A DNA stretch of 64,000 nucleotides from an uncultured virus (IMG/VR IMGVR_UViG_3300030104_003133) (Duplodnaviria; Heunggongvirae; Uroviricota; Caudoviricetes): IMG/VR virus record IMGVR_UViG_3300030104_003133; one strand, given 5' to 3'. Positions within the stretch are counted from its first letter, which is position 1; every line of letters starts with the position of its first letter. This document shows, one piece after another, positions 4,977 through 46,797 of this stretch. The notes beneath the pieces are model-generated. The model saw only the letters and a program-made list of their open reading frames with translations, ran no database searches and was not told the origin of the DNA. Made by a program: the position numbers and the translations under genes.

Positions 4977-4978
4977 TT

Positions 4979-22516: not shown

Positions 22517-23021
22517 AATTTATCAGACCTTTAAAACTCAAAATTTGGGCCGTCATTTATTTGCCACTTGCGCTTTTTTTTATTTTAAATTAATTCTATT
22601 TCCAGAATAAGGTAGAGTTTTAATCTTTTTTATATTTATTTAATAGTTTTAATTCTTTTTAATTGTATATTGAGATAAAATATTTGTATTCTTTTGTGTA
22701 CGGCGGCGTTTTTATTTATACATCAAATACTGGATTTGAACGTAGTGACCCCTTCTCTATCTATGCCATTATAGGCAAAGCATATTAATGTAGTGTTGGC
22801 AGCACTAAATAATTATACCACAACACAGTAAAACAATATTAATATGTAATAAAAAAAATTCTGCCTCACGGCCATATGGTTGCACATAATGTATAGGAAT
22901 GAGCCATTCCTTCGTTAATACAAGGAATAGGTGAATGGAAGGAATTAGTGTTTACCCGACAAGTTAAACGGCTATTCTGCATACATTTCATTTGGACACT
23001 AAGCGTGTCCTTTCGCAGACT

Positions 23022-23062
23022 ACCATATGGTGTGATGCTTTGTCGAATGAACACCCTATAAT
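23022..23062 (+). promoter_or_regulatory. Putative promoter of cassette A
   Basis: ACCATATGGT-N6-CTTTG...ACACCCTATAA upstream of GGTGA and ATG. Confidence 0.55.
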
Positions 23063-23124
23063 GTGTCTATATGTGCTATTATTGTGTGAGGGGCATTACT
23101 CACACTAAACGAGGTGAAAGAAAT

Positions 23125-23667
23125 ATGGCAGATTACAGTATGGATGATAACGCATGGAACGCAAAGAAAGCAGATATTGACGAATGGTTTGAGGCTAACC
23201 CAGACTTTTCGGCTAACAAGGCAATTACCGATGGACTATTCTCTATCGGTGATTCACAGGTTGAAATGAGGAAGAGATATTGGGCATCAATAGCAGGTGT
23301 CTTCGCAGGTCTTCCTAATTCCCCTATTGGTAGGGGTCGTCAATCTTTGATGGACGTAACTGATAAATCTCATGCAGACACTTACTTGGCTACTCTAGGG
23401 GATGCCTATGGTGTATTGTATGATTCAGCGTATGCAATTCTAAGAACACACGGTAAATCCGGTGGAAACCTATATTCCACTATGGATGATGGCCGAAGTG
23501 CATTCGTAAAGGACATGGTGACTAAGGCTAAGTTATTCATCAATTCCGGATATAACGCAGGTAAATCCCAGAACGACGATAAGAGGTTCTGGGTATCTTT
23601 CGATGATGGTGGTTCAATCGTCGTTGTAGATAATAACGCTTCTATGGGGGTAGAAGAAGAAGAGTGA
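23125..23667 (+). CDS. Hypothetical protein, paralogue of 27247-27753
   Basis: Start MADYS after GAGGTGA; LRTHGK motif; ends VEEEE. Confidence 0.7.
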   Translation: MADYSMDDNAWNAKKADIDEWFEANPDFSANKAITDGLFSIGDSQVEMRKRYWASIAGVFAGLPNSPIGRGRQSLMDVTDKSHADTYLATLGDAYGVLYDSAYAILRTHGKSGGNLYSTMDDGRSAFVKDMVTKAKLFINSGYNAGKSQNDDKRFWVSFDDGGSIVVVDNNASMGVEEEE

Positions 23668-24244
23668 GGCTTAATGCCCCTCACCACCCTTCGGGGTCAT
23701 TTAATCAAAGTATTACCATATGGTTGTCAATAATAGACGGATTGAGCCGGGGTAAATATCATGGGCGAAAGTAGACGCTTTATGACTTACCCCAACGCTG
23801 CCGGGTAAGCCACCCGTAATTCTTTCAGAACGCACTAAGAGTGCTATTACTCTCTGGCTACCATATGGATGTAACTCGTAGAGGCGGAAAATGATTGGAT
23901 AATATAATACGCTAAGTATAAGTGAAGCGGTATTCTCCTGTTCATTTTTTGCTCCACAAGTCAGGTTTACAACCATATGGATTGCTCTTAATGTAGAGAA
24001 GGAGGCATTCTTTCGTTTAAACAAAGAAGGCCGAGTGAACGGTTTTATTGCTTATCCCGTATGCGTCGGCTTGCGCACCGTAACCACTTCGTTTATACTA
24101 AGCGTCATATTGACGCTGCGCAACCATATGGAAATATCTCGCCAAAGGGTATTGTTGCTTAGTGAGCAACTACGATGATATTTCCACATCTGGCACATTA
24201 CATTCGTACTTAGCGTACTGACCATATGGTAATGTACTTTGATA

Positions 24245-24668
24245 GTCTGTTACCAGAATCACTAGATGCCTCATTTTCTACTCCCGATTCTAGTGGCGTC
24301 ACTACTGGACGACTTATACTGATTGTTATATGTGTTTTAATGCGGGCAGATGAGGTCTTACTCTAGGAGAGTGTAATGAAGGTTTTTTGGGCGATATCGT
24401 AACATCACGCCTCCGATAACCTACAACGGGAAATGAATGGATAAAGGGTTCTCTTTCGATTACCTTCAAAGTGTCATGGGTCACTAGTTTATGCCATTGT
24501 TAATGCATAGCCTTTACCCGACCTTACCACTAAACTCATCGCTAAATGAATTGTACTACCTACCGTTTTCTTTGGTCGGCTCGCTGAGTCGCTAAACTCC
24601 GATTAGTGTACCTTACCCCCTAACGAATGGGGTTGTTCAGTCAATCCGGTGTCCCCCGTCGGGGACAA
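24245..24668 (-). ncRNA. Candidate ~420-nt structured non-coding RNA (cassette B)
   Basis: Cassette-type promoter at 24688-24727 (minus); no ORF of 60 aa or more; several hairpins, e.g. TGTCCCC/GGGGACA 24650-24667. Confidence 0.45.
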
Positions 24669-25431
24669 TAATAGAGAAACTATCGTGTTAATATAGGGTT
24701 ATTTTGTCAAAGCAACAACCATATGGAATTGAAACATAGTGGTTTTCTGTGGCTTGGGGGAGTAATACGCTAAGTGTAAACGAAGTGTCGGAGGAAAGTG
24801 ACAGAAAATCAAACCCTAAAAAATAATTTGGTATAATCGTTGTTATTACCATATGGTAATGTCAATAATGTAATTATGATTTCTACCAGTCAGGAAGTGT
24901 GACCACAACCACGTTTCACTTACACTTAGCGTGTATATTGCTGCACACCTCCATATGGTGCGATAGGCGTAAACACTCTTAGTGTTAAGGAAACGTTAGC
25001 CGGGGTTCCATATAATAGAAACTTCGGGTGTTGTAACTTGTTGCTTCTATGTTCATGAGAACCAATCAAGTTAGAATGCTACGCATTCCACTACCATATG
25101 GTAAAAGATTTCTTTGTGAAGGTTCTGGTACGAAGCCTGAGTTTTCGCAATATAAATACACGCTAAGTGGTAACGAAGTGTATGTGGCGCAAACTTACCA
25201 GCAGCGAACAAAGTAATCACTGTAAGGGTTTTACCCGGTCTTACGACCATATGGTTAAGTAACGAAGTTACGTTTTTATGCACTGGGGCTGGTAGAACAA
25301 TAGTGAAACGCTAAGTAAGAGTGAAACGGCATTGTTGTACCGCGACGGTTGCATCAAATCACCACAGGGTCTACGACCATATGGTAGGCTACACTTTGTT
25401 CCGTAGAATGCCCCATTTCTGGGGACTTATA

Positions 25432-25530
25432 TCATTTCATTGGCACTATTCTACATATGCCCGCAATTGGGTCATAATAGTAGCAATCATCATGCCTCCT
25501 ATTACAATGCTCGCAGATTTCATCTTTCAT
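25432..25530 (-). CDS. 32-aa Cys-rich microprotein
   Basis: MKDEICEHCNRRHDDCYYYDPIAGICRIVPMK; ATGA overlap; followed by hairpin 25411-25424. Confidence 0.5.
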   Translation of the reverse strand: MKDEICEHCNRRHDDCYYYDPIAGICRIVPMK

Positions 25531-25688
25531 AATCTCTCCTCCACATAGTTTCTAAATCTCGACGCATTGAAATTAGGATTCGTATTGTGTAACTCTATCA
25601 CCAACCTATTGATTTGATTGTTATCTAATTCTAAGGCTATTGCTATCTCAGCAATCTTGATGAAGTGTCTTCTTTGAAATAAACTCAT
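25527..25688 (-). CDS. Small phage protein
   Basis: MSLFQRRHFIKIA...NPNFNASRF. Confidence 0.55.
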   Translation of the reverse strand: MSLFQRRHFIKIAEIAIALELDNNQINRLVIELHNTNPNFNASRFRNYVEERL

Positions 25689-25780
25689 ACTGCCACCCCC
25701 GCTTTTACTGCACAAGCATAACAAAGGCCAATCTTCTTGTTCTGTGATATTGGCTTACCACATTCGTTGCATGGTTTCAT
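25685..25780 (-). CDS. 31-aa C4 zinc-finger microprotein
   Basis: MKPCNECGKPISQNKKIGLCYACAVKAGVAV; ATGA overlaps at both ends. Confidence 0.6.
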   Translation of the reverse strand: MKPCNECGKPISQNKKIGLCYACAVKAGVAV

Positions 25781-26022
25781 TCTTCCTCCTCCTTAAAATC
25801 TCCATATATTTCATATTCGCTGTTATCGCCATATTCTGTACCAGTAAATATGACTTCAATTCCCTCAAATCCATGACTACATAGTGTGAAGGCAGAATCG
25901 AAGAACCCTACATGTTCATTGTATATCTCGAAAACTTCTTCATTTGTCAATTTTCTTGGTGACTTGATTACCCATTTCCTAGTATCAACCGACCATTCTT
26001 CTACTCTATACTCTATACTCAT
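25777..26022 (-). CDS. Acidic hypothetical protein
   Basis: Coupled ORF in cassette C. Confidence 0.55.
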   Translation of the reverse strand: MSIEYRVEEWSVDTRKWVIKSPRKLTNEEVFEIYNEHVGFFDSAFTLCSHGFEGIEVIFTGTEYGDNSEYEIYGDFKEEEE

Positions 26023-26732
26023 TGCATCACCAAATCAATTGTGTCCTTAGAACATTCATAGTTTGCACTAGATAGTATTTCTGTTGTGCAATCAACGGTA
26101 TGTGTAATCTCAGCATTGGATATTCTCTCAAGTGCTGAAACCATTCTTTGCCTAATGTTTCTCATATCATCAGCAGGGATAATAACAATTGACTTCTCTA
26201 TGTTCTTCCTGTCTGTAATAGATTCTATGTCCTTCCTTATCTCAAAGGTAAGTGAGAAAGCATCATCATTGACTCTTTGAATCTTGGTTGTTAGTTCAAC
26301 ACCATCATCCAAATAAACCATTGATGGGTAAATTGTTGATGTTGTCATTTCACCATCAAAGTTCTCATCGTCCATATATGCGTAAGAGCCGGGTACTGCC
26401 ATCCATTCTGTGTTCGTTGATTCTTCTGTTCTCTTGAAGTATTCAGCAATCCATTCATTGTTAATTAAATCTCTGACGATATCTCTAGCCTTGAATTCAT
26501 AGTTAGTAGTAAAGGCTAATTTATCATTGATTAGAATATCATATGAATTATTTGTCTTTATTATTTCTCTTAGACCGTATTTCTCATCATCGGGTGTACC
26601 ATAGAAATAAGACTCTACTAATGATATACCATCATCATGTAGATAAGATGAAAACTTTCGCATTAAAACAGGCGAATCCATCCATTCCTCGCTTTCAAAC
26701 ATTATTGTCATTGTTCTCTTGTATAGTGTCAT
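26019..26732 (-). CDS. Hypothetical protein
   Basis: 237 aa, cassette C. Confidence 0.6.
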   Translation of the reverse strand: MTLYKRTMTIMFESEEWMDSPVLMRKFSSYLHDDGISLVESYFYGTPDDEKYGLREIIKTNNSYDILINDKLAFTTNYEFKARDIVRDLINNEWIAEYFKRTEESTNTEWMAVPGSYAYMDDENFDGEMTTSTIYPSMVYLDDGVELTTKIQRVNDDAFSLTFEIRKDIESITDRKNIEKSIVIIPADDMRNIRQRMVSALERISNAEITHTVDCTTEILSSANYECSKDTIDLVMQ

Positions 26733-26734
26733 AT

Positions 26735-26926
26735 TTATCTCTCCATTGTTATGTATTCGTTTAGTGCCGTATGTAATTCATTGATTACTTCTTCTAAATC
26801 ATCACCAGATACCCGCAATTTGTTTATTGCTAGTATAAGCGATGAACCAGACTTCATATGCTTAAGTTCAAGCACATATTTAGGCTCATTTATCTGTTGT
26901 ATTGTTGTTGTATTGGTATTATCCAT
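26735..26926 (-). CDS. Small hypothetical protein, first gene of cassette C
   Basis: GGTGA SD; cassette promoter at ~26960-27000. Confidence 0.55.
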   Translation of the reverse strand: MDNTNTTTIQQINEPKYVLELKHMKSGSSLILAINKLRVSGDDLEEVINELHTALNEYITMER

Positions 26927-27246
26927 ATTTGTTTCACCAATATTAGGGGATGATTCGCCCTTATGAGGTTATTGCTGAACAAAGTGCATAACCATATGGT
27001 AAGGCCGTTAAATAGATTTGATTCAAAAATAGACATTGTTAATATCCTGCGCACACTGAAGTTTCTCTCTCCCATAGCCACGCAGGGATGAAAAATCACC
27101 CGTTTTTTTCCTAAGTAACTATTCTGCACCAGAAAAATACCTATTACCATATGGTTTCATACTTTGCTCAGGAACCCCTTATAAGGTCGGATGATATGCT
27201 TCTATTGCCCCAAACGGCAACAAAATTAAGAAAAGGTGAAATAAGA

Positions 27247-27753
27247 ATGGAACAAATAGATTGGGATTCAGTCAAATTTAAGGTAAATGATATGTTAGAT
27301 GCGGATAGCGAAATTAACGCTATTCCATCCGATGTTGTATCTCTAGCAAGAATGTTGCTAGATACTGGTGATAACAACGCTTCAACGCGTGAATCACTTA
27401 CAACATCAATTAGGGGAATGCTAAAGCCATACCCCGGCTACCCTTGGAAGAGGGGAAATCAGGGTTCACTCCCTGCTGCTGCAAGAGCAGTTGTTGATAC
27501 TGCTTGTGAAGAGATTAGGTCTGCTGCACACGCTTTCTTTAGCGGAACACTAACCTACTCTCAGCCATTGCTACGAAAGCATGGTAAAGCCAAAGGCTCG
27601 CCAGTATATGTTGATGCTGACGAATACGCAAACACACTAGCAAAGAAGGCTAGGCAAAACGCAACGGCTCTATTTAAGTCGGGTGAGTGGGACGGAACAT
27701 TAAGCGGTCTATCTGCTTGTTCCGCCTACGAATTTGTGGAGGAAGAGGAATAA
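27247..27753 (+). CDS. Hypothetical protein, paralogue of 23125-23667
   Basis: Start MEQID after GGTGA; LRKHGK motif; ends VEEEE. Confidence 0.7.
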   Translation: MEQIDWDSVKFKVNDMLDADSEINAIPSDVVSLARMLLDTGDNNASTRESLTTSIRGMLKPYPGYPWKRGNQGSLPAAARAVVDTACEEIRSAAHAFFSGTLTYSQPLLRKHGKAKGSPVYVDADEYANTLAKKARQNATALFKSGEWDGTLSGLSACSAYEFVEEEE

Positions 27754-27794
27754 TCCTCTTCACCACTTAATCGCTAGTTTGGTGGCATTCCTGC

Positions 27795-27839
27795 GGGAGA
27801 GGGAGTTTAGTCCTATTTTGGGCTTTATTCCCTCTCCCC
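27795..27839 (+). terminator. GC-rich hairpin closing cassette D
   Basis: GGGAGAGGGA...TCCCTCTCCC. Confidence 0.5.
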
Positions 27840-28523
27840 AATTCTTCTGGTAATTATACGTTCAAAGTGTATAATACCATATGGTTCGGTTTTAACTTAT
27901 TTTAAGCAGTCGCCGGGGAGAGCGTTGCGCGGGGGTTATAAACTCGGAGGCTTGCCTCTAATTAGAAGTCGGCAATTATAATTTAACACCGTTCAAACAC
28001 GCTTTCCGACAAACGGTGTATAAGTCAGTATAACAATCAATGGCCTAATTTGTTATGTAGTTAATTAGGTACTCTGAGATTATAGTACCAATAAGATGCT
28101 CTAATCATTGTTATATGACATATATCATACGGATATGCTTATGATATATCCTATATGATATGATAGTGAGAATTACGAACAGGCAGAACTGCTAAACTCT
28201 TACACACTTCTCGTTTCCAATCTGAGTGAGAATGAGAGGTGGGCAAGAGTTAGTAGGTTTAGGTATAAGAAGTAATGATATATTATATATTTCTATTATT
28301 ATCATTATTCTACTACTATTATTGCCACCACACCCTCCCCTCCCTTCTCTATTATTATTTGAGATGGGGGGGTGGAAATGAGAGAAATGAGAATCACAAA
28401 TAGAAATGACAATATCTCTAGCAGTTTCAGCAGGAGAACTGATAAACTTTCATTTCCACCAATGGAGAGAAACATTGTGGAAACAACTGACCGGGAGAGC
28501 AGGTTAACATTGAAGGTGTTAAA

Positions 28524-29015
28524 ATGAATAAAAAATGGACAAAGAAAGAAGAAAGCAGATTAATATCTTTATGGAATGAAGGTTTAACCATAAAGCAGAT
28601 TGCTAACGCAATAAAGAACAAAGATATGGTAAGCGTAAGAAATAAAACGCAATACTTAAGAAGGAAGGGAATCCTTCAAGGAAGGAGAAACAAGACTAAC
28701 GTTGAAGTTAAAGATGATAATACTCTAGGAGAAAGTAATATGACAGAACAAGATTCTACTAATATTAAAATAATTAAGACGATTGAAGATATTCGTCTAT
28801 TCCTATTGAAGAAGAATGAACAATATGGCGATTCTGCCTTAGAACCTATTCGTATCTTTTCAAAGGCTGATAAACATGAGCAGTTGAAGGTAAGAATTGA
28901 TGATAAACTAAATAGATTAGTTCAAGGTAATGCCGATATAGAGTCTGATGAAGACGTTGTTAAAGACTTAATAGGTTATCTTATACTACTTTTAATCAGT
29001 ATGAAAGATAACTGA
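28524..29015 (+). CDS. Myb/HTH domain fused to a DUF1599-like (nucleotide-modification-associated) domain
   Basis: KWTKKEE..IANA; KNEQYGDS..RIDDKLNRL..DLIGY. Confidence 0.6.
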   Translation: MNKKWTKKEESRLISLWNEGLTIKQIANAIKNKDMVSVRNKTQYLRRKGILQGRRNKTNVEVKDDNTLGESNMTEQDSTNIKIIKTIEDIRLFLLKKNEQYGDSALEPIRIFSKADKHEQLKVRIDDKLNRLVQGNADIESDEDVVKDLIGYLILLLISMKDN

Positions 29016-31936: not shown

Positions 31937-33093
31937 CAGAAGATTGGAAAGAAGCAAAAAGAGCATTAGGTAATGGCCGATGGGATAGAGTTCTAAAGAC
32001 CAATATGGTTTCTCTATCTAAAGCAGACAATTATGATGATGCTAAAGATGAGTGGATAGCAACTGGCAATGTATGGTGGAATGGACTAGGTACAATGCCC
32101 ACATGGGTAACTAAACATCCATACAAGTGTTTGTGCGGTCACAATATTGTATATCACTTTGAGATTCATAACACCGAAACTGATGTTAGAGAGTCAGTTG
32201 GTTCAGACCACATAAACTCGTATCTTATTCTTCGTGCTATCCGTGAAGAAACTGGTCTATCTGATGACCAAATTACGGATGAAATGATTGAGGAATGGAT
32301 TGAAGTAAGAGTTGAAGCATTGAAGAAAGATGCATGGTGGAACATGCATGGTGATGAATTCACAAGAATGTTCAATGAAGTTAAGGACATGGACTTGAGA
32401 GTTAATGTACGCAAAAGTGGTAGATACTACGACTCAACGTATAGAATGTATCGTGACAAAACGTATATCAGGAAGAGAGGTGAAGGTAAATATGGGGAAC
32501 CATTCTACAAAATGGCCTCTTTGGTATGGCGTTGGAATCATCCAGATAATCCGAAAGCACAGATTAGGAGGAAAGGATATCCGAGTCAAAGTTTGTATAA
32601 TGATTTACTGTTGTTCTATTTTACGTTGGAAAAAGCAAACGAGCAGATTAAAAAAGAGGACAATTTTTTGGAGAGTCGGCTAGAGCAACTAGAAAATCAC
32701 GATAAAAAAGTGGAGGAAAGGAGAAGACTAGCCTTAGAACGCAAGAATAAAATTGTGGCGACGGTTCAAGATATCAATCACCAACCTGCATTTTTAGATG
32801 CGTGTGAGTATTATGGAGTAAAGCCATTCTTACCAGAACAAGGTAAAGATTCTTGGGAAGAAAGGTTCTTATTGGATATGAAGAATAGAATGATAAAAGG
32901 CGATGTTCTGAGTGAGAAGCAGACTAAGAAACTATGGGAAGTATTGTCTTCAGATAAGAAAGAAGACGTTCCGGCAACCGAGAGGCAAAAGAATTATTTA
33001 ATTCGATTAGGGTTTGAAGGAGATATAGACCATATAACTAAGGCTGATGCAAGCACAGAAATTAGCAAGTTGAAGAAAGAAAAGTGGGGATAA
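31933..33093 (+). CDS. Hypothetical protein with CxCxH motif
   Basis: CLCGH; C-terminal ATERQ..TKADAS..I repeat-type motif. Confidence 0.55.
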   Translation: MTEDWKEAKRALGNGRWDRVLKTNMVSLSKADNYDDAKDEWIATGNVWWNGLGTMPTWVTKHPYKCLCGHNIVYHFEIHNTETDVRESVGSDHINSYLILRAIREETGLSDDQITDEMIEEWIEVRVEALKKDAWWNMHGDEFTRMFNEVKDMDLRVNVRKSGRYYDSTYRMYRDKTYIRKRGEGKYGEPFYKMASLVWRWNHPDNPKAQIRRKGYPSQSLYNDLLLFYFTLEKANEQIKKEDNFLESRLEQLENHDKKVEERRRLALERKNKIVATVQDINHQPAFLDACEYYGVKPFLPEQGKDSWEERFLLDMKNRMIKGDVLSEKQTKKLWEVLSSDKKEDVPATERQKNYLIRLGFEGDIDHITKADASTEISKLKKEKWG

Positions 33094-33096
33094 ACC

Positions 33097-33312
33097 ATGA
33101 CGGAAAAAGGTAAAACAAAGAAAGAGTTAGAAGCAGAAGTCGCTACATTAGAGAGCGATTTAGATAGTATAAGAGAGCAATTGCAGCAAGTGAGCATGGG
33201 TTATCAAAACCTAGTAAATGCGAATGGACAACTGCAAGGACTTGTTCAGAAGTATGAAGAAACAATTAACATATTGACCGGAAGGCTCATCGAGGCTAGG
33301 GCGCAAGGTTAA
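33097..33312 (+). CDS. Small coiled-coil protein
   Basis: Heptad pattern. Confidence 0.55.
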   Translation: MTEKGKTKKELEAEVATLESDLDSIREQLQQVSMGYQNLVNANGQLQGLVQKYEETINILTGRLIEARAQG

Positions 33313-33351
33313 TTAGCAAAGTACATGAGGAAAGAAAACGGAGGACTAAGA

Positions 33352-33555
33352 ATGATTTTGACAATAATAAATGAAACAGGACACACGGAATTAGTGGGTA
33401 TATCCCACACCGATGTAATAGAGCAAATCAACGACCACCCTACACATTGGGTTGTTATTGATTCGGAACTTACTTCAAGGGAAGAGATTTCAGAAGTAAA
33501 TTGGGATAGCGTTGATAACGTTGAATTAATCCCTGCGGTTGTTGGCGGGCAATAA
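33352..33555 (+). CDS. Ubiquitin-like (SAMP/ThiS/MoaD-type beta-grasp) protein with a one-residue extension
   Basis: 67 aa after GGAGG; ends VELIPAVVGG-Q. Confidence 0.7.
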   Translation: MILTIINETGHTELVGISHTDVIEQINDHPTHWVVIDSELTSREEISEVNWDSVDNVELIPAVVGGQ

Positions 33556-33573
33556 GCCCACCACTCAACTAAA

Positions 33574-33612
33574 TGAGATAGTGGGGGCGTAGCCTCTCGC
33601 TCCCCTATCTCA
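33574..33612 (+). terminator. Hairpin downstream of the Ubl gene
   Basis: TGAGATAG..GGGG-GCG / CGC-TCCCC-TATCTCA. Confidence 0.45.
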
Positions 33613-33635
33613 AACAAGCCATTAGAGGTTATGGT

Positions 33636-34019
33636 ATGGATTTGAAAGATAATATTAATTTTATAGATAAGGGCCAGTTTAAACCGTTATTCAATATATT
33701 TGGTTGGCAGGCTAAAGAAGTAAAAACTTACAGGGAGTGGGATGTTGTTAGAGCAGACTTCTATCCTGTTGGTTATGTTCTTGGATTCAGCAAGAAAGCA
33801 GTTATCGTATGCGATGGAGATATGCAGATTGTATATGATGGGAAAACATTCACCGATTTTGACCACATGGTTCAAATATACGGTGATAAAGCCTACGAAA
33901 CTTTCCCTCAATGGGAAGTTCTAGTTGAGAAACAATGGGCTATAAAAAAGGAAGGAGAATGGGTGGCGGCTTTTTCTAATTTAAGTGAAATGCCATATAG
34001 TAAACAAGTGAAGTGTTAA
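33636..34019 (+). CDS. Hypothetical protein
   Basis: 127 aa, GAGGT SD. Confidence 0.55.
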   Translation: MDLKDNINFIDKGQFKPLFNIFGWQAKEVKTYREWDVVRADFYPVGYVLGFSKKAVIVCDGDMQIVYDGKTFTDFDHMVQIYGDKAYETFPQWEVLVEKQWAIKKEGEWVAAFSNLSEMPYSKQVKC

Positions 34020-34021
34020 TT

Positions 34022-35896
34022 ATGCAAGACAATAAAGCAAGAGAAATATTAAGTGACATAACGGTATATATGAAGTATGCAAAGTATATGCCTGAACAAA
34101 ATAGGAAGGAAACATGGCTAGAATTATGCCAAAGAAATATGGATATGCATCTAGAGAAGTTTTCACATTTAGGTGAAGATTTCTTACAAGAGATAGAAGA
34201 TGTATATGCAAACTATGTTATTCCAAGAAAGATATTACCTTCAATGCGTTCAATGCATTTTGCAGGTAAGCCAATTGAGATATCTCCTAATAGGATTTAC
34301 AATTGTGCATACATGCCTATCAATGATGTACTATGCTTCAATGAAGCAATGTTCTTGTTGTTAGGTGGAACAGGAGTAGGTTATTCTGTTCAGAAACATC
34401 ATGTGAGGCAATTGCCTCCTATTCAGCATCCCAATCCCAATAGAAAGAGAAAGATAGTGATTGAAGATTCTATTATGGGTTGGGCTGATGCAATCAAGGA
34501 ATTGTTTAGGTCTTACACAGGAGATTTGACTCAAACACCTAGATTCATCTATGATGATATTAGACCAAAAGGTGCAAGGCTAAAGACTAGTGGTGGTAAA
34601 GCACCCGGCCCTGCTCCATTGAGAACTTGTATTAGTATCATAGAGGGTATTCTACAAAACAAAGAGAACGGTACACACTTGACAACATTAGAATGTCATG
34701 ATATAATGTGTCATATAGCAGATGCAGTATTGTCTGGTGGTATTCGTAGAGCAGCCATGATTAGTCTATTCAGCATTGATGATGATGAAATGATTAATTG
34801 TAAAGCAGGGCCATTCTGGGATGGTAATGCACAAAGAATGAGAGCGAATAACTCAGCAGTAATTCTAAGACATAAGATTGATGAAGAGGTATTCAACAAG
34901 TTATGGAAGAGAATAGAAGAAGGTGGAACTGGTGAACCCGGTTTGTATTTCACCAACGACAAAGATTGGGGAACTAACCCCTGTTGTGAGATAGCACTTA
35001 GACCCTATCAGTTCTGTAATTTGACGGAATGCAACGTTAGTAATGTTGTAGACCAAGAAGACCTGAATAATAGAGTAAGGGCTGCATCATTCTTAGGTAC
35101 ACTACAAGCATCTTATACAGACTTCCATTATCTTAGAGATATATGGCAAGATACTACTGAGAAAGATGCATTGTTAGGAGTATCAATGACAGGACTCGCT
35201 AGTAACAAAGTTGCTAACCTAGATGTAACAGGTTCAGTATTCGTTGCTAAGAGAGAGAACGCAAGAGTAGCAGATATAATCGGTGTAGAGAAGGCAGCCA
35301 GATTAACCTGTATCAAACCATCCGGTACTGCTTCTTGTGTATTGGGAACTTCAAGCGGTATTCATGCTTGGCATTCTCCATATTATATTAGGAGAATTAG
35401 AGTCAAGGATGATGAACCAATAGCATTGTATCTGAATAAATACCATCCAGAACTGATGGAAAAAGACCAGTTTGATGCTAATGGATATTGTATTGCATTA
35501 CCGCAAAAAGCACCAGTAGGTGCAACAACAAGTAAGGATGAAGATGTATTTGCTTTCTTAGAGAGAGTAAAGGATGCTTCTGTAAGGTGGGTTTCACCCG
35601 GACACAGTAATGGGCAAAATACCCATAATGTTTCTGCTACTGTATATATCCCTGATGATAAATGGGATGAAGTAGGAAAGTGGATGTGGTTGAATAGACA
35701 TTTCTACAATGGATTGTCTTGTTTCCCATATGATGAGAACGCATATCCACAACCGCCATTCGAGGCTACTGATAGAAAGACTTACGATAAGATGATGCAA
35801 TCACTAAACAGTATTGATTTGACACAAGTTACTGACGATGATAATGATGATTTTGGTAACAATCCGGCTTGTGCAGGTGGGGCGTGTGATATATAG
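34022..35896 (+). CDS. nrdJ: Class II (B12-dependent) ribonucleotide reductase
   Basis: YNC, TNPCCEI, KPSGT, C-terminal CAGGAC; no class I beta subunit seen. Confidence 0.9.
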   Translation: MQDNKAREILSDITVYMKYAKYMPEQNRKETWLELCQRNMDMHLEKFSHLGEDFLQEIEDVYANYVIPRKILPSMRSMHFAGKPIEISPNRIYNCAYMPINDVLCFNEAMFLLLGGTGVGYSVQKHHVRQLPPIQHPNPNRKRKIVIEDSIMGWADAIKELFRSYTGDLTQTPRFIYDDIRPKGARLKTSGGKAPGPAPLRTCISIIEGILQNKENGTHLTTLECHDIMCHIADAVLSGGIRRAAMISLFSIDDDEMINCKAGPFWDGNAQRMRANNSAVILRHKIDEEVFNKLWKRIEEGGTGEPGLYFTNDKDWGTNPCCEIALRPYQFCNLTECNVSNVVDQEDLNNRVRAASFLGTLQASYTDFHYLRDIWQDTTEKDALLGVSMTGLASNKVANLDVTGSVFVAKRENARVADIIGVEKAARLTCIKPSGTASCVLGTSSGIHAWHSPYYIRRIRVKDDEPIALYLNKYHPELMEKDQFDANGYCIALPQKAPVGATTSKDEDVFAFLERVKDASVRWVSPGHSNGQNTHNVSATVYIPDDKWDEVGKWMWLNRHFYNGLSCFPYDENAYPQPPFEATDRKTYDKMMQSLNSIDLTQVTDDDNDDFGNNPACAGGACDI

Positions 35897-36223
35897 TCAT
35901 CATGTAATTAAAACAACAGATGACTTGAAACTCATCAAAGAGTATCTATTCGATGAGATAGATATCATTGACACCATTATGCCTAGTGTAACTACATATA
36001 GTGCATTGGATAACTACCTGTATAGAAATGTCAAAGAAGCAAAGAAAGCATTTAGAGATGCAGTAAACGATGCTATTGATGAGAAATTAACGCTAGACCT
36101 GTTTCTTCGCTATTTGCGGAGATTTTACATAGTCACAGGTTTAGCACAAGATGACAAAGAGGTTGGCTCGAAAATGAGAAACCTGTTTGATATGGCTATG
36201 TACTTAAAAATAAATAAAGAGGA

Positions 36224-36658
36224 ATGAAAATGAGATTTACGAATTGTAAATGTGGAAGCACAAATTTTGAAATAACACGGAACGGAAAGATGGAGTGTGT
36301 AGAATGTGGTAATTGGTTTAACCCATTCTCAGCACAACACCATAAGGTAATGAAACCAAACGGTAAGCATTACTTTTGGGTGATACTAACACCACACTTC
36401 ATTGAACGTTTTGAAGAAAACTTCATGGAGAAAGATATAGAGATAGAATCTTTAGTTGCAGATTCTCTAGCAATAGAGAAAGCAGCCACAATGAAGAGAA
36501 CGCAAGGTACTAAGTGGAACGATAAGCACATCTATTGGCGTTATTTCTTTAACCCAAAGAGAAAGCGTTTAGAGATGGAGTTCATCTCTCTAACTAATAC
36601 TAACTATTTTACTACTAAGTATCACAAGGATGTAGAGTTTGTAAAGGTGGGATTCTGA
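36224..36658 (+). CDS. Zinc-ribbon protein with an HFIER domain
   Basis: CKCGS..CVECG; LTPHFIERF. Confidence 0.5.
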   Translation: MKMRFTNCKCGSTNFEITRNGKMECVECGNWFNPFSAQHHKVMKPNGKHYFWVILTPHFIERFEENFMEKDIEIESLVADSLAIEKAATMKRTQGTKWNDKHIYWRYFFNPKRKRLEMEFISLTNTNYFTTKYHKDVEFVKVGF

Positions 36659-36981
36659 TGGATGTAAAAGAAGTCCATGAGAAGATGAACAAGTCAACAC
36701 TAGTTAGGACTTACAGAAGATGGTTATCTGATGAGAAGAAATTCTCTAAGAATACCAGAAGAGAAGGTAGGTTCAAGCAACCTATAATCAATAATAGGAA
36801 ATACTCTTGGAGTACATTCAAGAGATTACCAAGAGATGCAATACTAGTGTTCATCATAACAGAAGGTTGTGATGTTGAATACATGCAGAAACTCAACCAA
36901 GAAGGATTCTATGTTGAGAAGAGAGAGTGGCATGAAAACTTCGGTAAAAATGTCTTTGGTGGGTTGGGTGAAGAGGAATGA
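36658..36981 (+). CDS. Hypothetical protein
   Basis: Coupled ORF. Confidence 0.5.
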   Translation: MDVKEVHEKMNKSTLVRTYRRWLSDEKKFSKNTRREGRFKQPIINNRKYSWSTFKRLPRDAILVFIITEGCDVEYMQKLNQEGFYVEKREWHENFGKNVFGGLGEEE

Positions 36982-37311
36982 ACACCCTCCCCCAAGACAG
37001 TTTAGACTACATCGAAGGAAAATTGGAAGGAATGAAACTGGCTTTGCAGATAGTTAACAGGAGAGATGTAGACAACAATTCTGTTAGATGGTTAGTGAGA
37101 GAGATGGATATGCTTAGAAACAAAATAAACGAAATGAATATGGAGGATGAATAAATGAGTAAAGATAATTATTTTATGAGAAGATATGCCTGTACTAGAA
37201 ACCAGTACAGGAGGATAATGCTTGGTGTTAAATATCAAGAAGCATTCGACGGCCCCTTAGAAGAGTATGAAGAAAGAAAGAAGATTATTCTAAGTAAGAG
37301 AGGGGAGTGAG

Positions 37312-38622
37312 ATGTTTGATGATTACGGATGGTGTACTAAGGCTAAGATAGAAATATCTACTGCTGATGACAGTTCAAAGACCTACACTACTAATGTAGA
37401 TGTATATTCTACATATCAGTTGAATTATCATAGTCGTAAGACTGGAACTGAAGGTACTACGGGGCGTTACACAGTAGAATGCTCCTATATTAGAACACAA
37501 AAAGGAGAGCCTTTGATTAAAGGTATTAAAATTGCTTTACAGAATTTTCTAGGATGGGGTAGAAGAAATAGACGATGGGGCGCACCTAATGATTTCAAGG
37601 TAGCCTTCGTATTACCTAACAATAACAATGCTACTTTCATGGTTGAGAAGAAAGAGCCATACTACAAATTGATGAGTCAAAGAGTAACCAAGAAGAATCT
37701 AATGACTGCATTAAGTCGTGCATTGTATAGGTCATGTTTTGAAGAAGATGCTCAGACGCTAACAATCTATCTATTCAGAATGATAATGCTACCTGAGAAT
37801 GTATCTTATGTACTTGAGAACAGAACACCGTTTTGGTTCTTTGATGTAGAAACTAGAGAAAAGGTTGAGGTTAGACTCAACACTCAAATGATTGATAATG
37901 ATAAGGCCGCACTTGAAATATCAGATGGTGTATGGGGGCCAATAAGTGTGAAAGACCTAGATATATTTGTCAATTACTTCTATCATGGACATACTAGAGC
38001 AAAGAAATGGGCATATATGTCACCGAAGAAACTATGGAAAGAATTGATGGGAGAAGAACCATCATCATCACAAGAGAAACTTATGGTTGAGTTCCTATGC
38101 CAAAACAGGACACAAGACATAGTAGAAAATAGAGCAAAGGAGTTAATGAATTCCCTAACTGTAAGATACCCAGATAGAATTCGTCTAGTTGATGTGGGTA
38201 AATATACTGCTATGCTAATTAGAGGTAAGAAGGCTGACTGGATTATTGTAGATTCTACTTACAAGACTCAGATTCAGAAGGTTAAGACGTATGTGTTTAT
38301 TCATGATGATTTACTTCAACCTACTGATGCTGATACAAGGTCGTCATATAGAAGGACTAACAGTGGCTTGTCTTTCATGGGTGGTCAATTAAGAGGGCCG
38401 ATATGCATAGACAACGTTCACAGTAATTCAAGTCTTGGCGACCAATATGCTGCTAGAGGACTAGCATTGCTTAATGATAACATAACAATGAAACTAGTCA
38501 ATACTATTGGTAGATATGTTCCAAAGGAATTGAAAGACGATATAGATAAGGTTTCCAGATTCGATATGCCCTTTGTTGACATAACAGGTAAAGAAAAAGA
38601 TTGGAAGGTGATTATAAATTGA
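37312..38622 (+). CDS. Hypothetical protein with a possible C-terminal E2/UBC-like domain
   Basis: GPICID resembles the E2 G-x-IC-L-D active-site loop; two genes upstream of E1. Confidence 0.4.
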   Translation: MFDDYGWCTKAKIEISTADDSSKTYTTNVDVYSTYQLNYHSRKTGTEGTTGRYTVECSYIRTQKGEPLIKGIKIALQNFLGWGRRNRRWGAPNDFKVAFVLPNNNNATFMVEKKEPYYKLMSQRVTKKNLMTALSRALYRSCFEEDAQTLTIYLFRMIMLPENVSYVLENRTPFWFFDVETREKVEVRLNTQMIDNDKAALEISDGVWGPISVKDLDIFVNYFYHGHTRAKKWAYMSPKKLWKELMGEEPSSSQEKLMVEFLCQNRTQDIVENRAKELMNSLTVRYPDRIRLVDVGKYTAMLIRGKKADWIIVDSTYKTQIQKVKTYVFIHDDLLQPTDADTRSSYRRTNSGLSFMGGQLRGPICIDNVHSNSSLGDQYAARGLALLNDNITMKLVNTIGRYVPKELKDDIDKVSRFDMPFVDITGKEKDWKVIIN

Positions 38623-39554
38623 AATGCATGAATTGTGAATCAACGTCTAATTTTGTAGATGAGTCATTAGGTGAAACTGTATGCTCAGATTGCGGGCTAG
38701 TATTAGTTACCAATATATTTGAGGATAGAGTTTCCCAAGTACCTATCTTGAATGAAGACGGTAGTTCATCTATGAGAGTAGGTGATAGAGGAGCATTAGG
38801 TTCTGTATTCAATAGTAGTGGTTTCTCTGGAAGTTACATAAAGAGATTAGGAAGAACACAATTGAAGTTTAAGGGTAGGCAACAACAGTCATTGAATAGG
38901 GGATTCATTGAATTAAATATGGCGTTGTCCCCTTATCTTCCTAACCACTCACTAAAGGAGAGGGCGCATCATTATTACAAGAAACTGTTTTTCAGCAGGG
39001 TGATGCAGGGATATAACATAGACGTAAGAGCATCAGCAATATGTTTGATAGTGCTTCGTGAAAACGGAATACCGTTGACTATTTCTGAAGTAGCACAGAC
39101 GAATGGTTTGTCCCCTTCAAAGGTTTCAAAGTGTGCTAGAAAGTTAGCAAGGACACTAAATAAACCATACATTCTACATTCAATGCCGATTAAACCTTGG
39201 GTTGATAGAGTGACACATGATATGATTGTCACTAAGTATGGTAATGAAAATCTAAAAAGAAACTTCAAGAAAGATGCAATGGAAGTTGTGGAATATGTTC
39301 ACAATTATGTGACTGCTAGAGATATAGCATTCACTAAAAGTTACATGGCTTCTGCATTGTGGATTACTGTATGTTTGAGAGTGTTTGGTTCTCAGCCAGA
39401 ATTCACTCAACATGACATAGGTAATGCTACTAATTGTACTCCTGTTTCTCTAAGGAATAGGAACAAAGAAACATTCAATATGTTTAATGTGAACAAGAAA
39501 GACTTGGCTCAAATGACTGTCAAGCAATTTATTTCAGGTGTAAGATATGAATAA
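38619..39554 (+). CDS. tfb: Transcription factor B (TFIIB) homologue
   Basis: Zn ribbon CMNC..GETVCSDCGLV and two cyclin-like repeats; TTG start after GGTGA. Confidence 0.85.
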   Translation: MKCMNCESTSNFVDESLGETVCSDCGLVLVTNIFEDRVSQVPILNEDGSSSMRVGDRGALGSVFNSSGFSGSYIKRLGRTQLKFKGRQQQSLNRGFIELNMALSPYLPNHSLKERAHHYYKKLFFSRVMQGYNIDVRASAICLIVLRENGIPLTISEVAQTNGLSPSKVSKCARKLARTLNKPYILHSMPIKPWVDRVTHDMIVTKYGNENLKRNFKKDAMEVVEYVHNYVTARDIAFTKSYMASALWITVCLRVFGSQPEFTQHDIGNATNCTPVSLRNRNKETFNMFNVNKKDLAQMTVKQFISGVRYE

Positions 39555-40134
39555 GAAAAGAAAGGTATTGATAATAGGTGTAGGTGGAATAGGAAGTTAT
39601 TTGACTCCATTGTTACATAAGACAGGGTTGTATGATATACATATATCTGACCCTGATACTGTTGAAGTAAAGAATCTGTCTTATCAGAACTTCAACACTT
39701 CGCATATAGGTGCGAAGAAAGTAAGAGCGTTATTGGACTATGATGCCATAGGTAGCAGAAAAGAGTTTCCAATACTGACTCAAAACCAATTGAAGGGGTT
39801 TGATTTGATTGTTTGTTGTGCAGATAATTTAGATGTAAGACGATTGGTTTATAGGCAGGGCTTTCAAGATGATTGCACAAACAAGTGGTTAGATTTGAGA
39901 GCGCAAGGTAGGAATGGAGCATTAATCAGTTATTTGACTGACCCTAAACATTGCGATACATTTCTAGCAGGGCCAGACGGTTCATTCAGTTGTCAAGGTG
40001 AATCATTTGGTAAGACGTTAGATACGAAGGACATACACTTTACCCATGTAGCAGTAGCAGGTATGGCTGCACAATGGATGCAAAGATGGTTTAACGATGA
40101 GAATATTTTTGACAAAAGGATAGTGAATATATGA
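39547..40134 (+). CDS. ThiF/MoeB/E1-family adenylyltransferase
   Basis: GVGGIG, DPDTVEVKNLSYQ, CCADN, SCQ. Confidence 0.88.
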   Translation: MNKKRKVLIIGVGGIGSYLTPLLHKTGLYDIHISDPDTVEVKNLSYQNFNTSHIGAKKVRALLDYDAIGSRKEFPILTQNQLKGFDLIVCCADNLDVRRLVYRQGFQDDCTNKWLDLRAQGRNGALISYLTDPKHCDTFLAGPDGSFSCQGESFGKTLDTKDIHFTHVAVAGMAAQWMQRWFNDENIFDKRIVNI

Positions 40135-42904: not shown

Positions 42905-42972
42905 CCAATGGAAGGAGTATTAGTCGTACTTTTCTTCTATTGGATTTGGAAGACTATTAGGAGGCCATATGA

Positions 42973-46791: not shown

Positions 46792-46797
46792 ATAATT

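What the first reader, a model, noticed from the sequence alone, without database searches (positions are those of the whole stretch)
22872..27885. Modular cassette array punctuated by 16 CCATATGG palindromes
Seen: 16 copies in 5 kb, and I noticed none elsewhere in the window. They cut the region into 11 short modules (98-155 bp) and four long units: A 23022-23724 (+ gene), B 24221-24727 (- non-coding), C 25376-27000 (- operon) and D 27146-27885 (+ gene). All 8 ends of the long units carry an inward-facing CCATATGGT-N4-8-CTTTG. Only one short-module face comes close (25094, N9). Each long unit is self-contained (promoter, cargo, hairpin) and orientations are mixed. Inference: a shuffling/inversion or cassette-capture system using a symmetric core site, integron- or shufflon-like, that I do not recognise from any described archaeal virus. 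An operator or nucleoprotein-binding array is the alternative. I see no tyrosine or serine recombinase in the window.
Basis: partly seen in the sequence, partly recalled or inferred. Interest (0 to 1): 0.92.

Follow-up and report, generated by a model that had tools for sequence, protein, structure and literature searches.

The report
Palindrome-jointed shuffled cassettes in magrovirus
An ocean virus of archaea keeps a row of small self-contained gene and RNA units joined by one invariant palindrome, and close relatives carry the same units reordered and flipped exactly at that palindrome, by an enzyme that is still unknown.

Summary
All 16 CCATATGG copies lie in 22872-27884, where chance predicts about 1. 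No one-mismatch copy lies inside the array. The window is a tailed archaeal virus of magrovirus type with a split PolB.

- **Not genome-wide:** in seven relatives that are 56-100% complete, the 8-mer again clusters in one block of 3-5 kb.
- **Long units:** the four long units are autonomous cassettes. CTTTG is the loop of a strand-specific hairpin whose stem starts at the palindrome's GG.
- **Unit B:** it is a manA-like RNA.
- **Short units:** 10 of the 11 ORF-less units carry a small covarying pentaloop hairpin.
- **Shuffling:** contigs 74-99% identical hold the same units permuted, inverted, gained and lost. Unit interiors match end to end, so breakpoints fall at the palindrome.
- **Enzyme:** no tyrosine or serine recombinase, Y1 transposase or Hjc was found in five relatives at least 90% complete.

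It is not an integron or a shufflon. It works most like the PeSL cassettes of T4-type phages, but with a symmetric core and inversions. The recombining enzyme and the palindrome binder are unknown. This scan has reported the same kind of array before, on other magrovirus DNA.

The parts
22872..27884 (.). Array of 16 invariant CCATATGG palindromes (s1-s16). Starts: 22872, 23023, 23716, 23861, 23973, 24124, 24222, 24719, 24849, 24951, 25094, 25247, 25377, 26992, 27147, 27877. They join 15 units.
   Evidence: 16 found, about 1 expected. (no one-mismatch copy inside the array). In 244 related full elements the core is usually the 10-mer A-CCATATGG-T: A before in 230 of 244, T after in 227 of 244.
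22880..23022 (-). Short ORF-less unit u1. Pentaloop hairpin motif at 22990-23013 (- strand).
   Evidence: RNA fold z-score -2.4 (+ strand) and -2.3 (- strand).
23023..23723 (+). Long cassette A. Arm hairpin 23029-23055 with CTTTG in the loop. TATA-like box 23053-23061. ORF 23125-23667 (180 aa, A/D family). 3' hairpins 23664-23684 and 23687-23696 (UUCG loop). Arm hairpin 23695-23717.
   Evidence: sequence and arms. (protein family). RNA contig of run X16 lies on 23103-23574.
23724..23860 (-). Short ORF-less unit u3. Motif at 23826-23849 (- strand).
23869..23972 (+). Short ORF-less unit u4. Motif at 23902-23925 (+ strand), at the tip of a unit-long hairpin.
   Evidence: 26 pairs enclose the motif, against 12.2 in shuffles. 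Fold z-score -4.1 on the - strand.
23981..24123 (-). Short ORF-less unit u5. Motif at 24089-24112 (- strand).
24132..24221 (-). Short ORF-less unit u6. Motif at 24200-24223 (- strand), abutting palindrome s7.
   Evidence: The unit is absent from L329.
24222..24726 (-). Long cassette B, non-coding. Arm hairpin 24697-24720. TATA-like box 24691-24699. manA-like structured RNA 24433-24667. Arm hairpin 24228-24254.
   Evidence: Rfam RF01745: 48.3 bits (gathering score 55.2), E 3.2e-10, full model length. The same family lies inside the arrays of L331 (44 bits), L132 (43.7) and L134 (32). RNA contig at 24412-24657 has the highest depth of the region, 1851.
24727..24848 (+). Short ORF-less unit u8. 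Motif at 24760-24783 (+ strand).
   Evidence: Inverted in L329 and absent from L334.
24857..24950 (-). Short ORF-less unit u9. Motif at 24916-24939 (- strand).
   Evidence: Moved in L329; moved and inverted in L334.
24959..25093 (+). Short ORF-less unit u10. Motif at 24968-24991 (+ strand).
   Evidence: Inverted in L329.
25102..25246 (+). Short ORF-less unit u11. Motif at 25153-25176 (+ strand). It is the only short unit face with CTTTG (N9).
   Evidence: 28 enclosing pairs against 8.9 in shuffles.
25255..25376 (+). Short ORF-less unit u12. Motif at 25301-25324 (+ strand).
   Evidence: 22 enclosing pairs against 10.0 in shuffles.
25377..26999 (-). Long cassette C, an operon. Arm hairpin 26967-26993. 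TATA-like box 26960-26968. ORFs 26735-26926 (63 aa), 26019-26732 (237 aa), 25777-26022 (81 aa), 25527-25724 (65 aa). 3' hairpin 25410-25426. Arm hairpin 25383-25412.
   Evidence: The 237-aa protein has 17 unnamed relatives. Model pLDDT 74 with no clear fold match. RNA contig lies on 25538-26938.
27000..27146 (.). Short ORF-less unit u14, the only short unit without the pentaloop motif.
   Evidence: Fold z-score +1.6 (+ strand) and -0.35 (- strand).
27147..27884 (+). Long cassette D. Arm hairpin 27153-27176. TATA-like box about 27175-27186. ORF 27247-27753 (168 aa, A/D family). 3' hairpin 27796-27838. Arm hairpin 27849-27878.
   Evidence: RNA contigs lie on 27207-27791. D always sits next to the right flank, in the same orientation, in 9 of 9 relatives whose held DNA reaches that flank.

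Best explanation
This is the hyperplastic accessory region of a magrovirus. It is built from self-contained cassettes joined end to end by one invariant joint, the palindrome (A)CCATATGG(T).

Shown:
(1) Each long cassette has its own TATA-like promoter, cargo and 3' hairpin. At both ends it has an arm: a hairpin whose stem starts at the GG of the palindrome and whose loop holds CTTTG.
(2) The arm folds on one strand only, the strand read outward from the palindrome into the cassette.
(3) Cassettes of both kinds, long and short, have been permuted, inverted, gained and lost between close relatives, with breakpoints at the palindrome.

Inferred:
(a) The palindrome is the binding site of a dimeric DNA-binding protein that marks every cassette boundary.
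(b) The inward-facing arms insulate a cassette against polymerases coming in from either neighbour. That lets a cassette work whichever way round and wherever it lands.
(c) Rearrangements arise when the virus's own replication and repair enzymes break and rejoin DNA, or switch templates, at these identical protein-marked 10-bp sites. The window encodes an ERCC4-type nuclease, a Cas4-like PD-(D/E)XK nuclease, an ATP-dependent ligase and an AAA_24 ATPase.

On this reading the joint is a passive recombination hotspot, as PeSLs are in T4-type phages. Because the core is symmetric, inversion is as easy as excision.
For: Anatomy. All 8 long-unit faces have GG-anchored arms with CTTTG in the loop (mean uninterrupted stem 5.5 pairs). 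The 22 short-unit faces have none (4.09, against a random GGT control of 4.34).

Family-wide arms. Across 487 half-elements from related contigs:
- Mean stem is 5.58 pairs, against 4.73 with shuffled partners (sd 0.05, maximum 4.84).
- 240 of 487 have 5 or more Watson-Crick pairs, against about 77 in shuffles.
- Isolated stem mismatches are G.T or T.G 21 times and A.C or C.A once, where shuffled partners give 1242 to 702. This shows the fold is on one strand.

Expression. RNA contigs of a metatranscriptome run (X16) lie on the cargo of A, B, C and D only, and none of the 6 records crosses a palindrome. The contigs for C and D begin 20-30 nt beyond the TATA-like boxes. This is a weak hint, because contigs cannot fix RNA ends.

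Shuffling. Unit interiors were mapped without the palindromes.
- In L329 the interiors match end to end (for example u9 1-94 of 94, u7 1-487 of 489 inverted, u2 1-685 of 685), in the order u1 u9 u4 u5 u7- f16 u8- u10- u2 u3 u11 u12.
- The same arrangement is seen over the shared part in a second contig, L338.
- L334 reads u1-u7 u10 u11 u12 u9- f13-.
- L330, which equals L340, together with L339, L341, L342 and G004 each differ again. Their flanks and unit D stay fixed.
- Cassette families f13 and f16-f19 are shared among relatives but absent from the window.
- Run X5 has contigs that leave the window's sequence at s7 (place 24217) and just after s16 (27889).

Enzymes. No Phage_integrase, Resolvase, Y1_Tnp or Hjc was found in 5 of 5 relatives that are at least 90% complete. 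The nucleases and the ligase are in the window.
Against: Only 4 of the 16 palindromes in this window sit next to a TATA-type promoter, and 8 join two ORF-less units. Yet all 16 are perfect and none has decayed. A purely regulatory reason for conservation is therefore weak here.

At junctions between short units the only shared identity is the 8-10 bp core. That is far shorter than the homology PeSL-type exchange relies on, and it fits a site-specific cut better.

No binder of the palindrome has been identified. The insulator role of the arms is an inference, and archaeal RNA polymerase is not known to need hairpins to terminate (recalled).

The window arrangement is stable in several independent assemblies: G001, L336 and L337, and the contigs of X2 and X7. 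Ongoing shuffling within a population is therefore not shown.
Confidence: 0.45

Rival explanations
1. A dedicated recombination system exists. An unrecognised virus- or host-encoded enzyme recognises the palindrome, with or without the hairpin arms. It cuts symmetrically and rejoins, actively inverting, excising and capturing cassettes. It could be a site-specific recombinase of a new family, or a nuclease working with the viral ligase. This would be the functional analogue of an integron or shufflon in an archaeal virus.
For: Breakpoints fall at an 8-10 bp core even where nothing else is shared, as at short-unit junctions. All 16 cores are perfect, including the 8 that lie between ORF-less units, and there are no decayed copies; that is what regeneration at each exchange would give. 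A symmetric core predicts both inversion and transposition, and both are seen. The arms fold on one strand, as integron attC sites do (recalled). Many array proteins have no known fold or family.
Against: No tyrosine or serine recombinase, Y1 HUH transposase or Hjc resolvase was found in the window or in 5 near-complete relatives. No candidate enzyme was found. The A/D family and the 237-aa protein gave no nuclease or recombinase match, although absence of a match is weak evidence. The same arrangement recurs in several independent samples, so turnover is not fast.
Confidence: 0.3
2. The array is only an operator or nucleoprotein array. The palindromes are binding sites for a regulator or a DNA-organising protein, and they have no part in recombination. 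The rearrangements merely happen to end there, because everything between the sites is dispensable.
For: In relatives most palindromes sit between a 3' hairpin and a TATA-like promoter, or between two divergent promoters. The promoter type CTTTG...ACCCTATA is confined to the array in the window.
Against: Interiors of moved units match end to end, and alignments stop within 0-3 nt of the core in 10 of 12 L329 units. Random breaks in dispensable DNA would not do this. In addition, 12 of the 16 sites in the window have no TATA-type promoter beside them.
Confidence: 0.08
3. The array is a replication origin. The palindromes, and perhaps the pentaloop motifs, are repeated initiator-binding sites at the point from which the two gene blocks diverge.
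For: The array lies at the cumulative GC-skew minimum and at the switch of coding strand. It is flanked by AT-rich non-coding stretches, 22520-22870 (GC 0.27-0.31) and 28000-28520.
Against: The skew change coincides with the switch of transcription direction, which explains it equally well. The sites bound expressed cassettes spread over 5 kb. Site number and order vary freely between close relatives, which is unlike origin repeats. No Orc1/Cdc6-type gene turned up in the Pfam scans of the window.
Confidence: 0.05
4. The apparent shuffling is an assembly artefact, caused by contigs mis-joined at the repeat.
For: All the data are metagenome assemblies. The repeat occurs 16 times in 5 kb.
Against: The identical stretch is only 8-10 bp, shorter than usual assembly word sizes (recalled). 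The L329 arrangement recurs in L338, and the L330 arrangement recurs in L340, in contigs from different collections. The window arrangement recurs in G001, L336, X2 and X7.
Confidence: 0.02

Closest known systems
PeSLs (promoter-early stem-loops) of T4-type phages: mobile regulatory cassettes (PMC2839356, abstract and section 13 read; PMC4122927, abstract read)
   Same: Both are short composite promoter and stem-loop elements repeated at the borders of small accessory genes. Both are concentrated in a hyperplastic region between conserved modules. Both serve as the points where closely related viruses have gained, lost and swapped genes.
   Different: PeSLs are directional sigma-70 promoters in bacterial viruses, and exchange there is by homologous recombination between similar PeSLs, giving indels, replacements and mini-circles. 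Here the host is archaeal and the promoters are TATA-type. The invariant part is a 10-bp perfect palindrome with a strand-specific hairpin on each cassette face. Cassettes are also inverted. ORF-less units that share only the 8-10 bp core are shuffled too. There is no sequence relation between the two.
Integron cassette arrays
   Same: A row of small exchangeable units, including ORF-less ones. There are recombination points at the unit borders. Elements beside the crossover point fold on one strand.
   Different: No IntI-type tyrosine recombinase. No attI or common promoter. The long cassettes carry their own promoters and sit in both orientations. The site is a perfect 10-bp palindrome and not an attC.
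Shufflons and other multiple-inversion systems (Rci, Hin/Gin/Cin; recalled)
   Same: Segments between repeated sites are found in several orders and orientations.
   Different: No tyrosine or serine invertase gene. Units are independent transcription units, not alternative ends of one gene. Units are also gained and lost. The core is symmetric, whereas sfx sites are asymmetric (recalled).
manA RNA motif, Rfam RF01745 (PMC2864571, passages on manA read)
   Same: Unit B matches the full model length at E 3.2e-10. Three relatives carry a match inside their arrays. The paper says the motif occurs almost only in marine metagenomes, plus T4-like cyanophages.
   Different: All four matches score below the family's gathering score (32-48.3 bits against 55.2). 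Here the RNA is a stand-alone cassette with its own promoter in an archaeal virus, not a 5' leader of a bacterial or cyanophage gene.

Membership tests
Integron | Adjacent intI gene (tyrosine recombinase) | tested here: not met
   No PF00589 hit among 83 ORF translations of the window. 0 of 5 relatives at least 90% complete have a hit, while the control genomes gave 14 of 14.
Integron | Promoterless cassettes in one orientation, expressed from a common promoter | tested here: not met
   Each long unit has its own TATA-like box, and the orientations are mixed: A+, B-, C-, D+. RNA contigs lie on each unit separately.
Integron | attC site (imperfect inverted repeat of 57-141 bp) at each cassette end | tested here: not met
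   The joints are a perfect 8-10 bp palindrome. The arms are hairpins of 23-30 nt and occur on long units only. The attC definition is recalled.
Shufflon / DNA-invertase systems | Site-specific invertase gene (Rci-type tyrosine or Hin-type serine recombinase) | tested here: not met
   PF00589 and PF00239: 0 of 5 relatives, and none in the window.
Shufflon / DNA-invertase systems | Segments between repeated sites occur in alternative orders and orientations | tested here: met
   Seen between genomes. Alternation within one population was not tested.
PeSL-type mobile regulatory cassettes (a functional class, not a sequence family) | Composite promoter plus stem-loop at gene borders | tested here: met
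   Met for the long units: arm hairpin plus TATA-like box at 4 faces, arm plus 3' hairpin at 4 faces. Covarying arms occur family-wide. Not met for the 22 short-unit faces.
PeSL-type mobile regulatory cassettes (a functional class, not a sequence family) | Concentrated in a hyperplastic region and flanking genes of unknown function | tested here: met
   There is one block per genome in 8 genomes. The cargo proteins have no Pfam family.
PeSL-type mobile regulatory cassettes (a functional class, not a sequence family) | Differences between close relatives have their ends at the elements | tested here: met
PeSL-type mobile regulatory cassettes (a functional class, not a sequence family) | Exchange by homologous recombination between similar elements; mini-circles | not testable with these tools
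   Only contigs were available, not raw reads. Shared identity at short-unit joints is only 8-10 bp.
manA RNA (RF01745), for unit B | Score at or above Rfam's gathering threshold | tested here: not met
   48.3 bits against 55.2, although E is 3.2e-10 over the full model. Relatives score 44, 43.7 and 32 bits. It is best called manA-like.
Archaeal replication origin (ORB repeats) | Repeats around an AT-rich unwinding element next to an initiator gene | tested here: inconclusive
   The skew minimum and AT-rich flanks are present. No Orc1/Cdc6-type family appeared in the Pfam scans. The repeats bound expressed cassettes.

The most novel reading that the evidence does not exclude
Magroviruses possess an active cassette-shuffling and cassette-capture system of a new kind. 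An unrecognised enzyme cuts and rejoins DNA at an invariant 10-bp palindrome, guided by strand-specific hairpin arms, without any tyrosine, serine or HUH recombinase. It draws on a shared pool of promoter-bearing gene cassettes, structured-RNA cassettes (manA-like) and about 100-150-nt hairpin-RNA cassettes. This would be an archaeal-virus counterpart of the integron.
Probability: 0.28. Interest if true: 0.92.

Novelty: new variant of a known kind. Interest (0 to 1): 0.78.

Why it matters
Magroviruses are among the most abundant viruses of the surface ocean (PMC5434244, summary and passages read). How they vary their accessory genes is not described. The main texts of three magrovirus papers contain no occurrence of 'palindrom' or 'promoter', and 'repeat' occurs only for terminal or assembly repeats.

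The array gives a precise, testable rule for that variation: whole cassettes move and flip at one 10-bp palindrome. It also offers three further openings:
- a compact set of archaeal promoter and insulator parts;
- a place where the unexplained marine manA-type RNAs reside;
- a possible route to a new recombination enzyme.

The many ORF-less units of this lineage show that the joint is kept even where there is no gene to regulate. That is the strongest hint that the joint itself is the functional object.

Tried and rejected
- **One long hairpin or cruciform across the palindrome.** Left and right spacers are no more complementary than shuffled pairs (0.458 against 0.459, 50 equal-length pairs). 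Rejected. The pairing is instead between each spacer and the sequence beyond CTTTG.
- **An NdeI-like CATATG site as the determinant.** CATATG occurs 24 times outside the palindromes. Rejected.
- **Folds of the cargo proteins.** The A-family model has pLDDT 86. Foldseek gave nothing at E 0.001 or better, and the best VIA Z was 6.6 on a three-helix bundle only. The C 237-aa model has pLDDT 74, with best Z 6.3 and best Foldseek E 6e-3. No function can be drawn from either.
- **ESM Atlas for the 237-aa protein.** No usable hit.
- **PHROGs for the array proteins.** Nothing informative.
- **The 163-aa protein right of the array.** It shows only a sub-threshold GcrA-like N-terminus (Pfam E 0.043; PDB 5yiu E 0.84). 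This is a lead, not a finding.
- **RNA cover on the short units.** No X16 contig lies on them.
- **X5 joint 24241>27863** (side 25, at the repeated arms). Too weak to use.
- **X5 loose end at 26962.** It may only mark a more diverged C cassette.
- **Long helices enclosing the pentaloop motif.** Clear in units with 38 nt or more upstream of the motif (for example 26, 28, 22, 23 and 29 pairs), but absent where the motif lies near the palindrome. Overall 11.2 pairs against 7.2 in shuffles. Not a general rule.
- **Fold z-scores of the short units.** Mostly mild.
- **The pentaloop motif in G002-G006.** Not found there.
- **Literature search for the 8-mer.** It returned 1,541 papers; the 15 listed are unrelated to magroviruses, and I take most hits to be cloning primers.
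- **Own genome and 'relatives' draw.** Not available.
- **Supplements.** Supplementary files of the magrovirus papers were not opened. They might hold annotations of this region.

Full report
**1.

CCATATGG occurs 16 times in the 64-kb window, and all copies lie between 22872 and 27884. Chance predicts about one copy, and 0 of 100 shuffles reach 16. Allowing one mismatch adds 28 hits. All 28 lie outside the array at about chance density, so the array holds 16 perfect copies and no decayed one.

All 8 faces of the long units read CCATATGGT-N4-8-CTTTG. The only short-unit face with CTTTG is at 25094.

**2. What the window is**

Pfam finds a portal protein, a terminase, a tail chaperone, a TFIIB-type zinc ribbon protein, an ATP-dependent DNA ligase, RFC, a PolB split into two genes, an ERCC4/HhH nuclease and a Cas4-like PD-(D/E)XK nuclease. 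This is a tailed archaeal virus of magrovirus type. According to PMC5434244 (passages read), a split polymerase marks magrovirus group B.

The array lies between the - strand structural block and the + strand replication block, at the cumulative GC-skew minimum. Two tRNA genes follow it.

**3. The 8-mer is not dense genome-wide, and the array is a family trait**

The window's own genome is not held, so I used relatives. The share of sites inside one block is:

| Record | Size or completeness | Sites in one block | Block |
|---|---|---|---|
| G007, closest complete relative | 96 kb | 16 of 17 | 86157-90723 |
| G008 | 92% complete | 21 of 22 | 40608-45239 |
| G002 | complete, terminal repeats | 12 of 13 | 961-6217 |
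| G004 | 90% complete | 12 of 13 | 44397-49137 |
| G005 | 78% complete | 11 of 11 | 32482-37511 |
| G006 | 56% complete | 9 of 11 | 49692-54241 |
| G003 | complete | 6 of 11 | 59720-62770 |

The reversed, non-complemented control word gave 0-1 hits per genome.

**4. Anatomy of the long cassettes**

Each long unit reads inward from its 5' palindrome as follows: an arm, a TATA-like box (ACCCTATAA type), about 50-70 nt, a GGTGA ribosome-binding site and the start codon. It ends with a GC hairpin, which in A has a UUCG loop, and then a second arm before the next palindrome.

This promoter type, CTTTG followed by a TATA-like box, is confined to the array apart from one doubtful hit at 58068.

The cargo is as follows:
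- **A and D** are paralogous proteins of about 170-180 aa (E 2e-8). The family is present in one to three copies in every array examined. It has an HGKSGG motif and an acidic EEE tail and no Pfam family.
- **C** is a four-ORF operon.
- **B** has no ORF but matches the manA RNA model over its full length (48.3 bits, gathering score 55.2, E 3.2e-10). Matches also lie inside the arrays of L331, G002 and G004 (44, 43.7 and 32 bits).

**5. What CTTTG is**

A title among the earlier notes of this scan (e1-6001266) suggested that CTTTG sits in a hairpin loop, and I tested this. I first checked whether the whole element is one long hairpin. The spacers left and right of the palindrome are not complementary beyond chance (0.458 against 0.459). 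The pairing is different: GG(T) plus the spacer pairs with the bases that follow CTTTG and end in ...ACC.

The evidence from 487 half-elements of related contigs is:
- Mean stem is 5.58 pairs, against 4.73 with shuffled partners (sd 0.05, maximum 4.84).
- 240 of 487 have at least 5 Watson-Crick pairs, against about 77 in shuffles.
- Single mismatches inside stems are G.T or T.G 21 times and A.C or C.A once, where shuffled partners give 1242 to 702.

The arm therefore folds on one strand, the strand read outward from the palindrome into the cassette. It folds as RNA or as one DNA strand, not as a duplex protein site.

In the window the 8 long-unit faces have such arms (mean 5.5 uninterrupted pairs). 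The 22 short-unit faces do not (4.09, against 4.34 for a random GGT-anchored control).

**6. The short units**

They have no credible ORFs. Ten of the 11 carry a motif in either orientation: a small hairpin NNAC-GCTWA-GTNN followed by AAnGAAR. I collected 27 instances from the window, L329 and L330.

- The two pairs next to the loop never vary.
- The next pair is kept in 21 of 25 distinct rows by four pair types (CG 10, UA 5, AU 4, UG 2).
- The covariation score is 0.264, against 0.120 in shuffles (0 of 500 reach it), and it exceeds all slid controls.
- In the units where the motif lies mid-unit, it sits at the tip of a unit-long imperfect hairpin. In the others it does not.

The motif is lineage-specific; it is absent from G002-G006. 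What these units do is unexplained. They may be small structured RNAs.

**7. Expression**

Contigs of one metatranscriptome run (X16) lie on 23103-23574 (A), 24412-24657 (B, by far the deepest at 1851), 25538-26938 (C) and 27207-27791 (D). None of the 6 records crosses a palindrome. The contigs of C and D start 20-30 nt beyond the TATA-like boxes. This fits the promoter reading, but contigs cannot fix RNA ends.

**8. The decisive comparison**

I mapped the interiors of the 15 units, without their palindromes, onto relatives.

| Contig(s) | Similarity to the window | Arrangement |
|---|---|---|
| G001, L336, L337; contigs of runs X2 and X7 | about 96% | collinear with the window |
| L329 | units 74-96%, left flank 98% | u1 u9 u4 u5 u7- f16 u8- u10- u2 u3 u11 u12 |
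| L338 | same variant as L329 | the same order, from u2 onward |
| L334 | unit A 99% | u1-u7 u10 u11 u12 u9- f13-, then C; u8 absent |

In L329, 10 of the 12 intervals match a window unit over its whole interior. Examples are u9 1-94 of 94, u5 1-143 of 143, u7 1-487 of 489 inverted and u2 1-685 of 685.

At 63-86% identity, L330 (which equals L340), L339, L341, L342 and G004 each differ again. Cassette A lies on either side of C and in either orientation, and B takes either orientation. The two flanks and cassette D stay fixed.

Cassette families f13 and f16-f19 are shared among relatives but absent from the window. Run X5 holds contigs that leave the window's sequence 5 nt left of s7 and just right of s16.

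There are thus at least three arrangements among genomes whose shared units are mostly 85-99% identical. Breakpoints lie at the palindrome, and units of both kinds move as wholes.

**9. Which enzyme?**

None was found. Phage_integrase, Resolvase, Y1_Tnp and Hjc are absent from 5 of 5 relatives that are at least 90% complete, while the control genomes give hits. They are also absent from the window. Models of the A-family protein (pLDDT 86) and of the 237-aa C protein (pLDDT 74) match no solved fold convincingly. The virus does encode nucleases and a ligase that could break and rejoin DNA.

**10. Reading**

- **Shown:** the anatomy, the strand-specific arms, and shuffling at the palindrome as an evolutionary outcome.
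- **Inferred, most likely (about 0.45):** the palindrome is bound by a dimeric protein that marks cassette borders. The inward-facing arms shield each cassette from transcription or copying that comes in from either neighbour, so a cassette works in any place and orientation. The general replication and repair enzymes of the virus occasionally break and rejoin, or switch templates, at these identical sites. This resembles how PeSLs work in T4-type phages (PMC2839356; PMC4122927).
- **Strongest rival (about 0.3):** a dedicated, unrecognised enzyme. This window speaks for it more than gene-only arrays do. Twelve of its 16 palindromes have no TATA-type promoter beside them, and 8 join two ORF-less units. 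Yet all are perfect, and at those joints only 8-10 bp are shared.
- **Less likely:** an origin of replication, a pure operator array, or an assembly artefact (see Rival explanations).

**11. Novelty**

The main texts of three magrovirus papers contain no occurrence of 'palindrom' or 'promoter', and 'repeat' occurs only for terminal or assembly repeats. Their supplements were not opened. A text search for the 8-mer was uninformative.

The scan has reported the same kind of array before, on at least eight other magrovirus windows, with the same nearest analogue. My tests agree with those notes. This window adds:
- the shuffled ORF-less hairpin units;
- the G.T against A.C strand test;
- the manA-like cassette and its high RNA depth;
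- three arrangements among near-identical genomes.

Noticed in passing
24433-24667 (- strand); also L331:9577-9805, L132:2926-3205, L134:4858-5096: A manA-like structured RNA (Rfam RF01745, below the gathering score but E 3e-10) forms a stand-alone cassette in an archaeal virus. It is the most deeply covered part of the region in a metatranscriptome run. The motif was described from marine metagenomes and cyanophages, so some of those marine copies may belong to magroviruses.
   Followed up: partly
22520-22870 and 27885-28520: AT-rich non-coding stretches flank the array. The left one has GC 0.27-0.31 and a 10-bp tandem repeat at 22618-22664. The right one holds short AT repeats. Either could contain a replication origin or divergent promoters.
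   Followed up: partly
28524-29015 (+ strand): A 163-aa protein sits immediately right of the array, and is conserved at that place in G004 and G006. It matches PHROG 1485 and has a sub-threshold GcrA-like N-terminus. It is a candidate DNA-binding protein.
   Followed up: partly
51796-53466 and 53546-54463 (+ strand): The family-B DNA polymerase is split into two adjacent genes (exonuclease plus N-terminal polymerase part, then C-terminal polymerase part). The literature describes this as the mark of magrovirus group B.
   Followed up: no
39547-40134, 41090-41611 and 40131-40775 (+ strand): A ThiF-like E1 enzyme and a weak JAB-domain protein lie close together, hinting at a ubiquitin-like modification module. 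A Myb-like DNA-binding protein lies between them.
   Followed up: no
25820-25913: Inside cassette C, about 92 nt are replaced by about 90-95 unrelated letters in contigs of two runs (X7 DNA and X16 RNA). This is a small replacement within the operon, away from any palindrome.
   Followed up: no
L331 (G008:40608-45239): A more distant relative has 21 palindromes and 17 short units. Those units carry a different recurring motif (AT-rich words shared by 3-4 units) in place of the GCTWA pentaloop hairpin.
   Followed up: no
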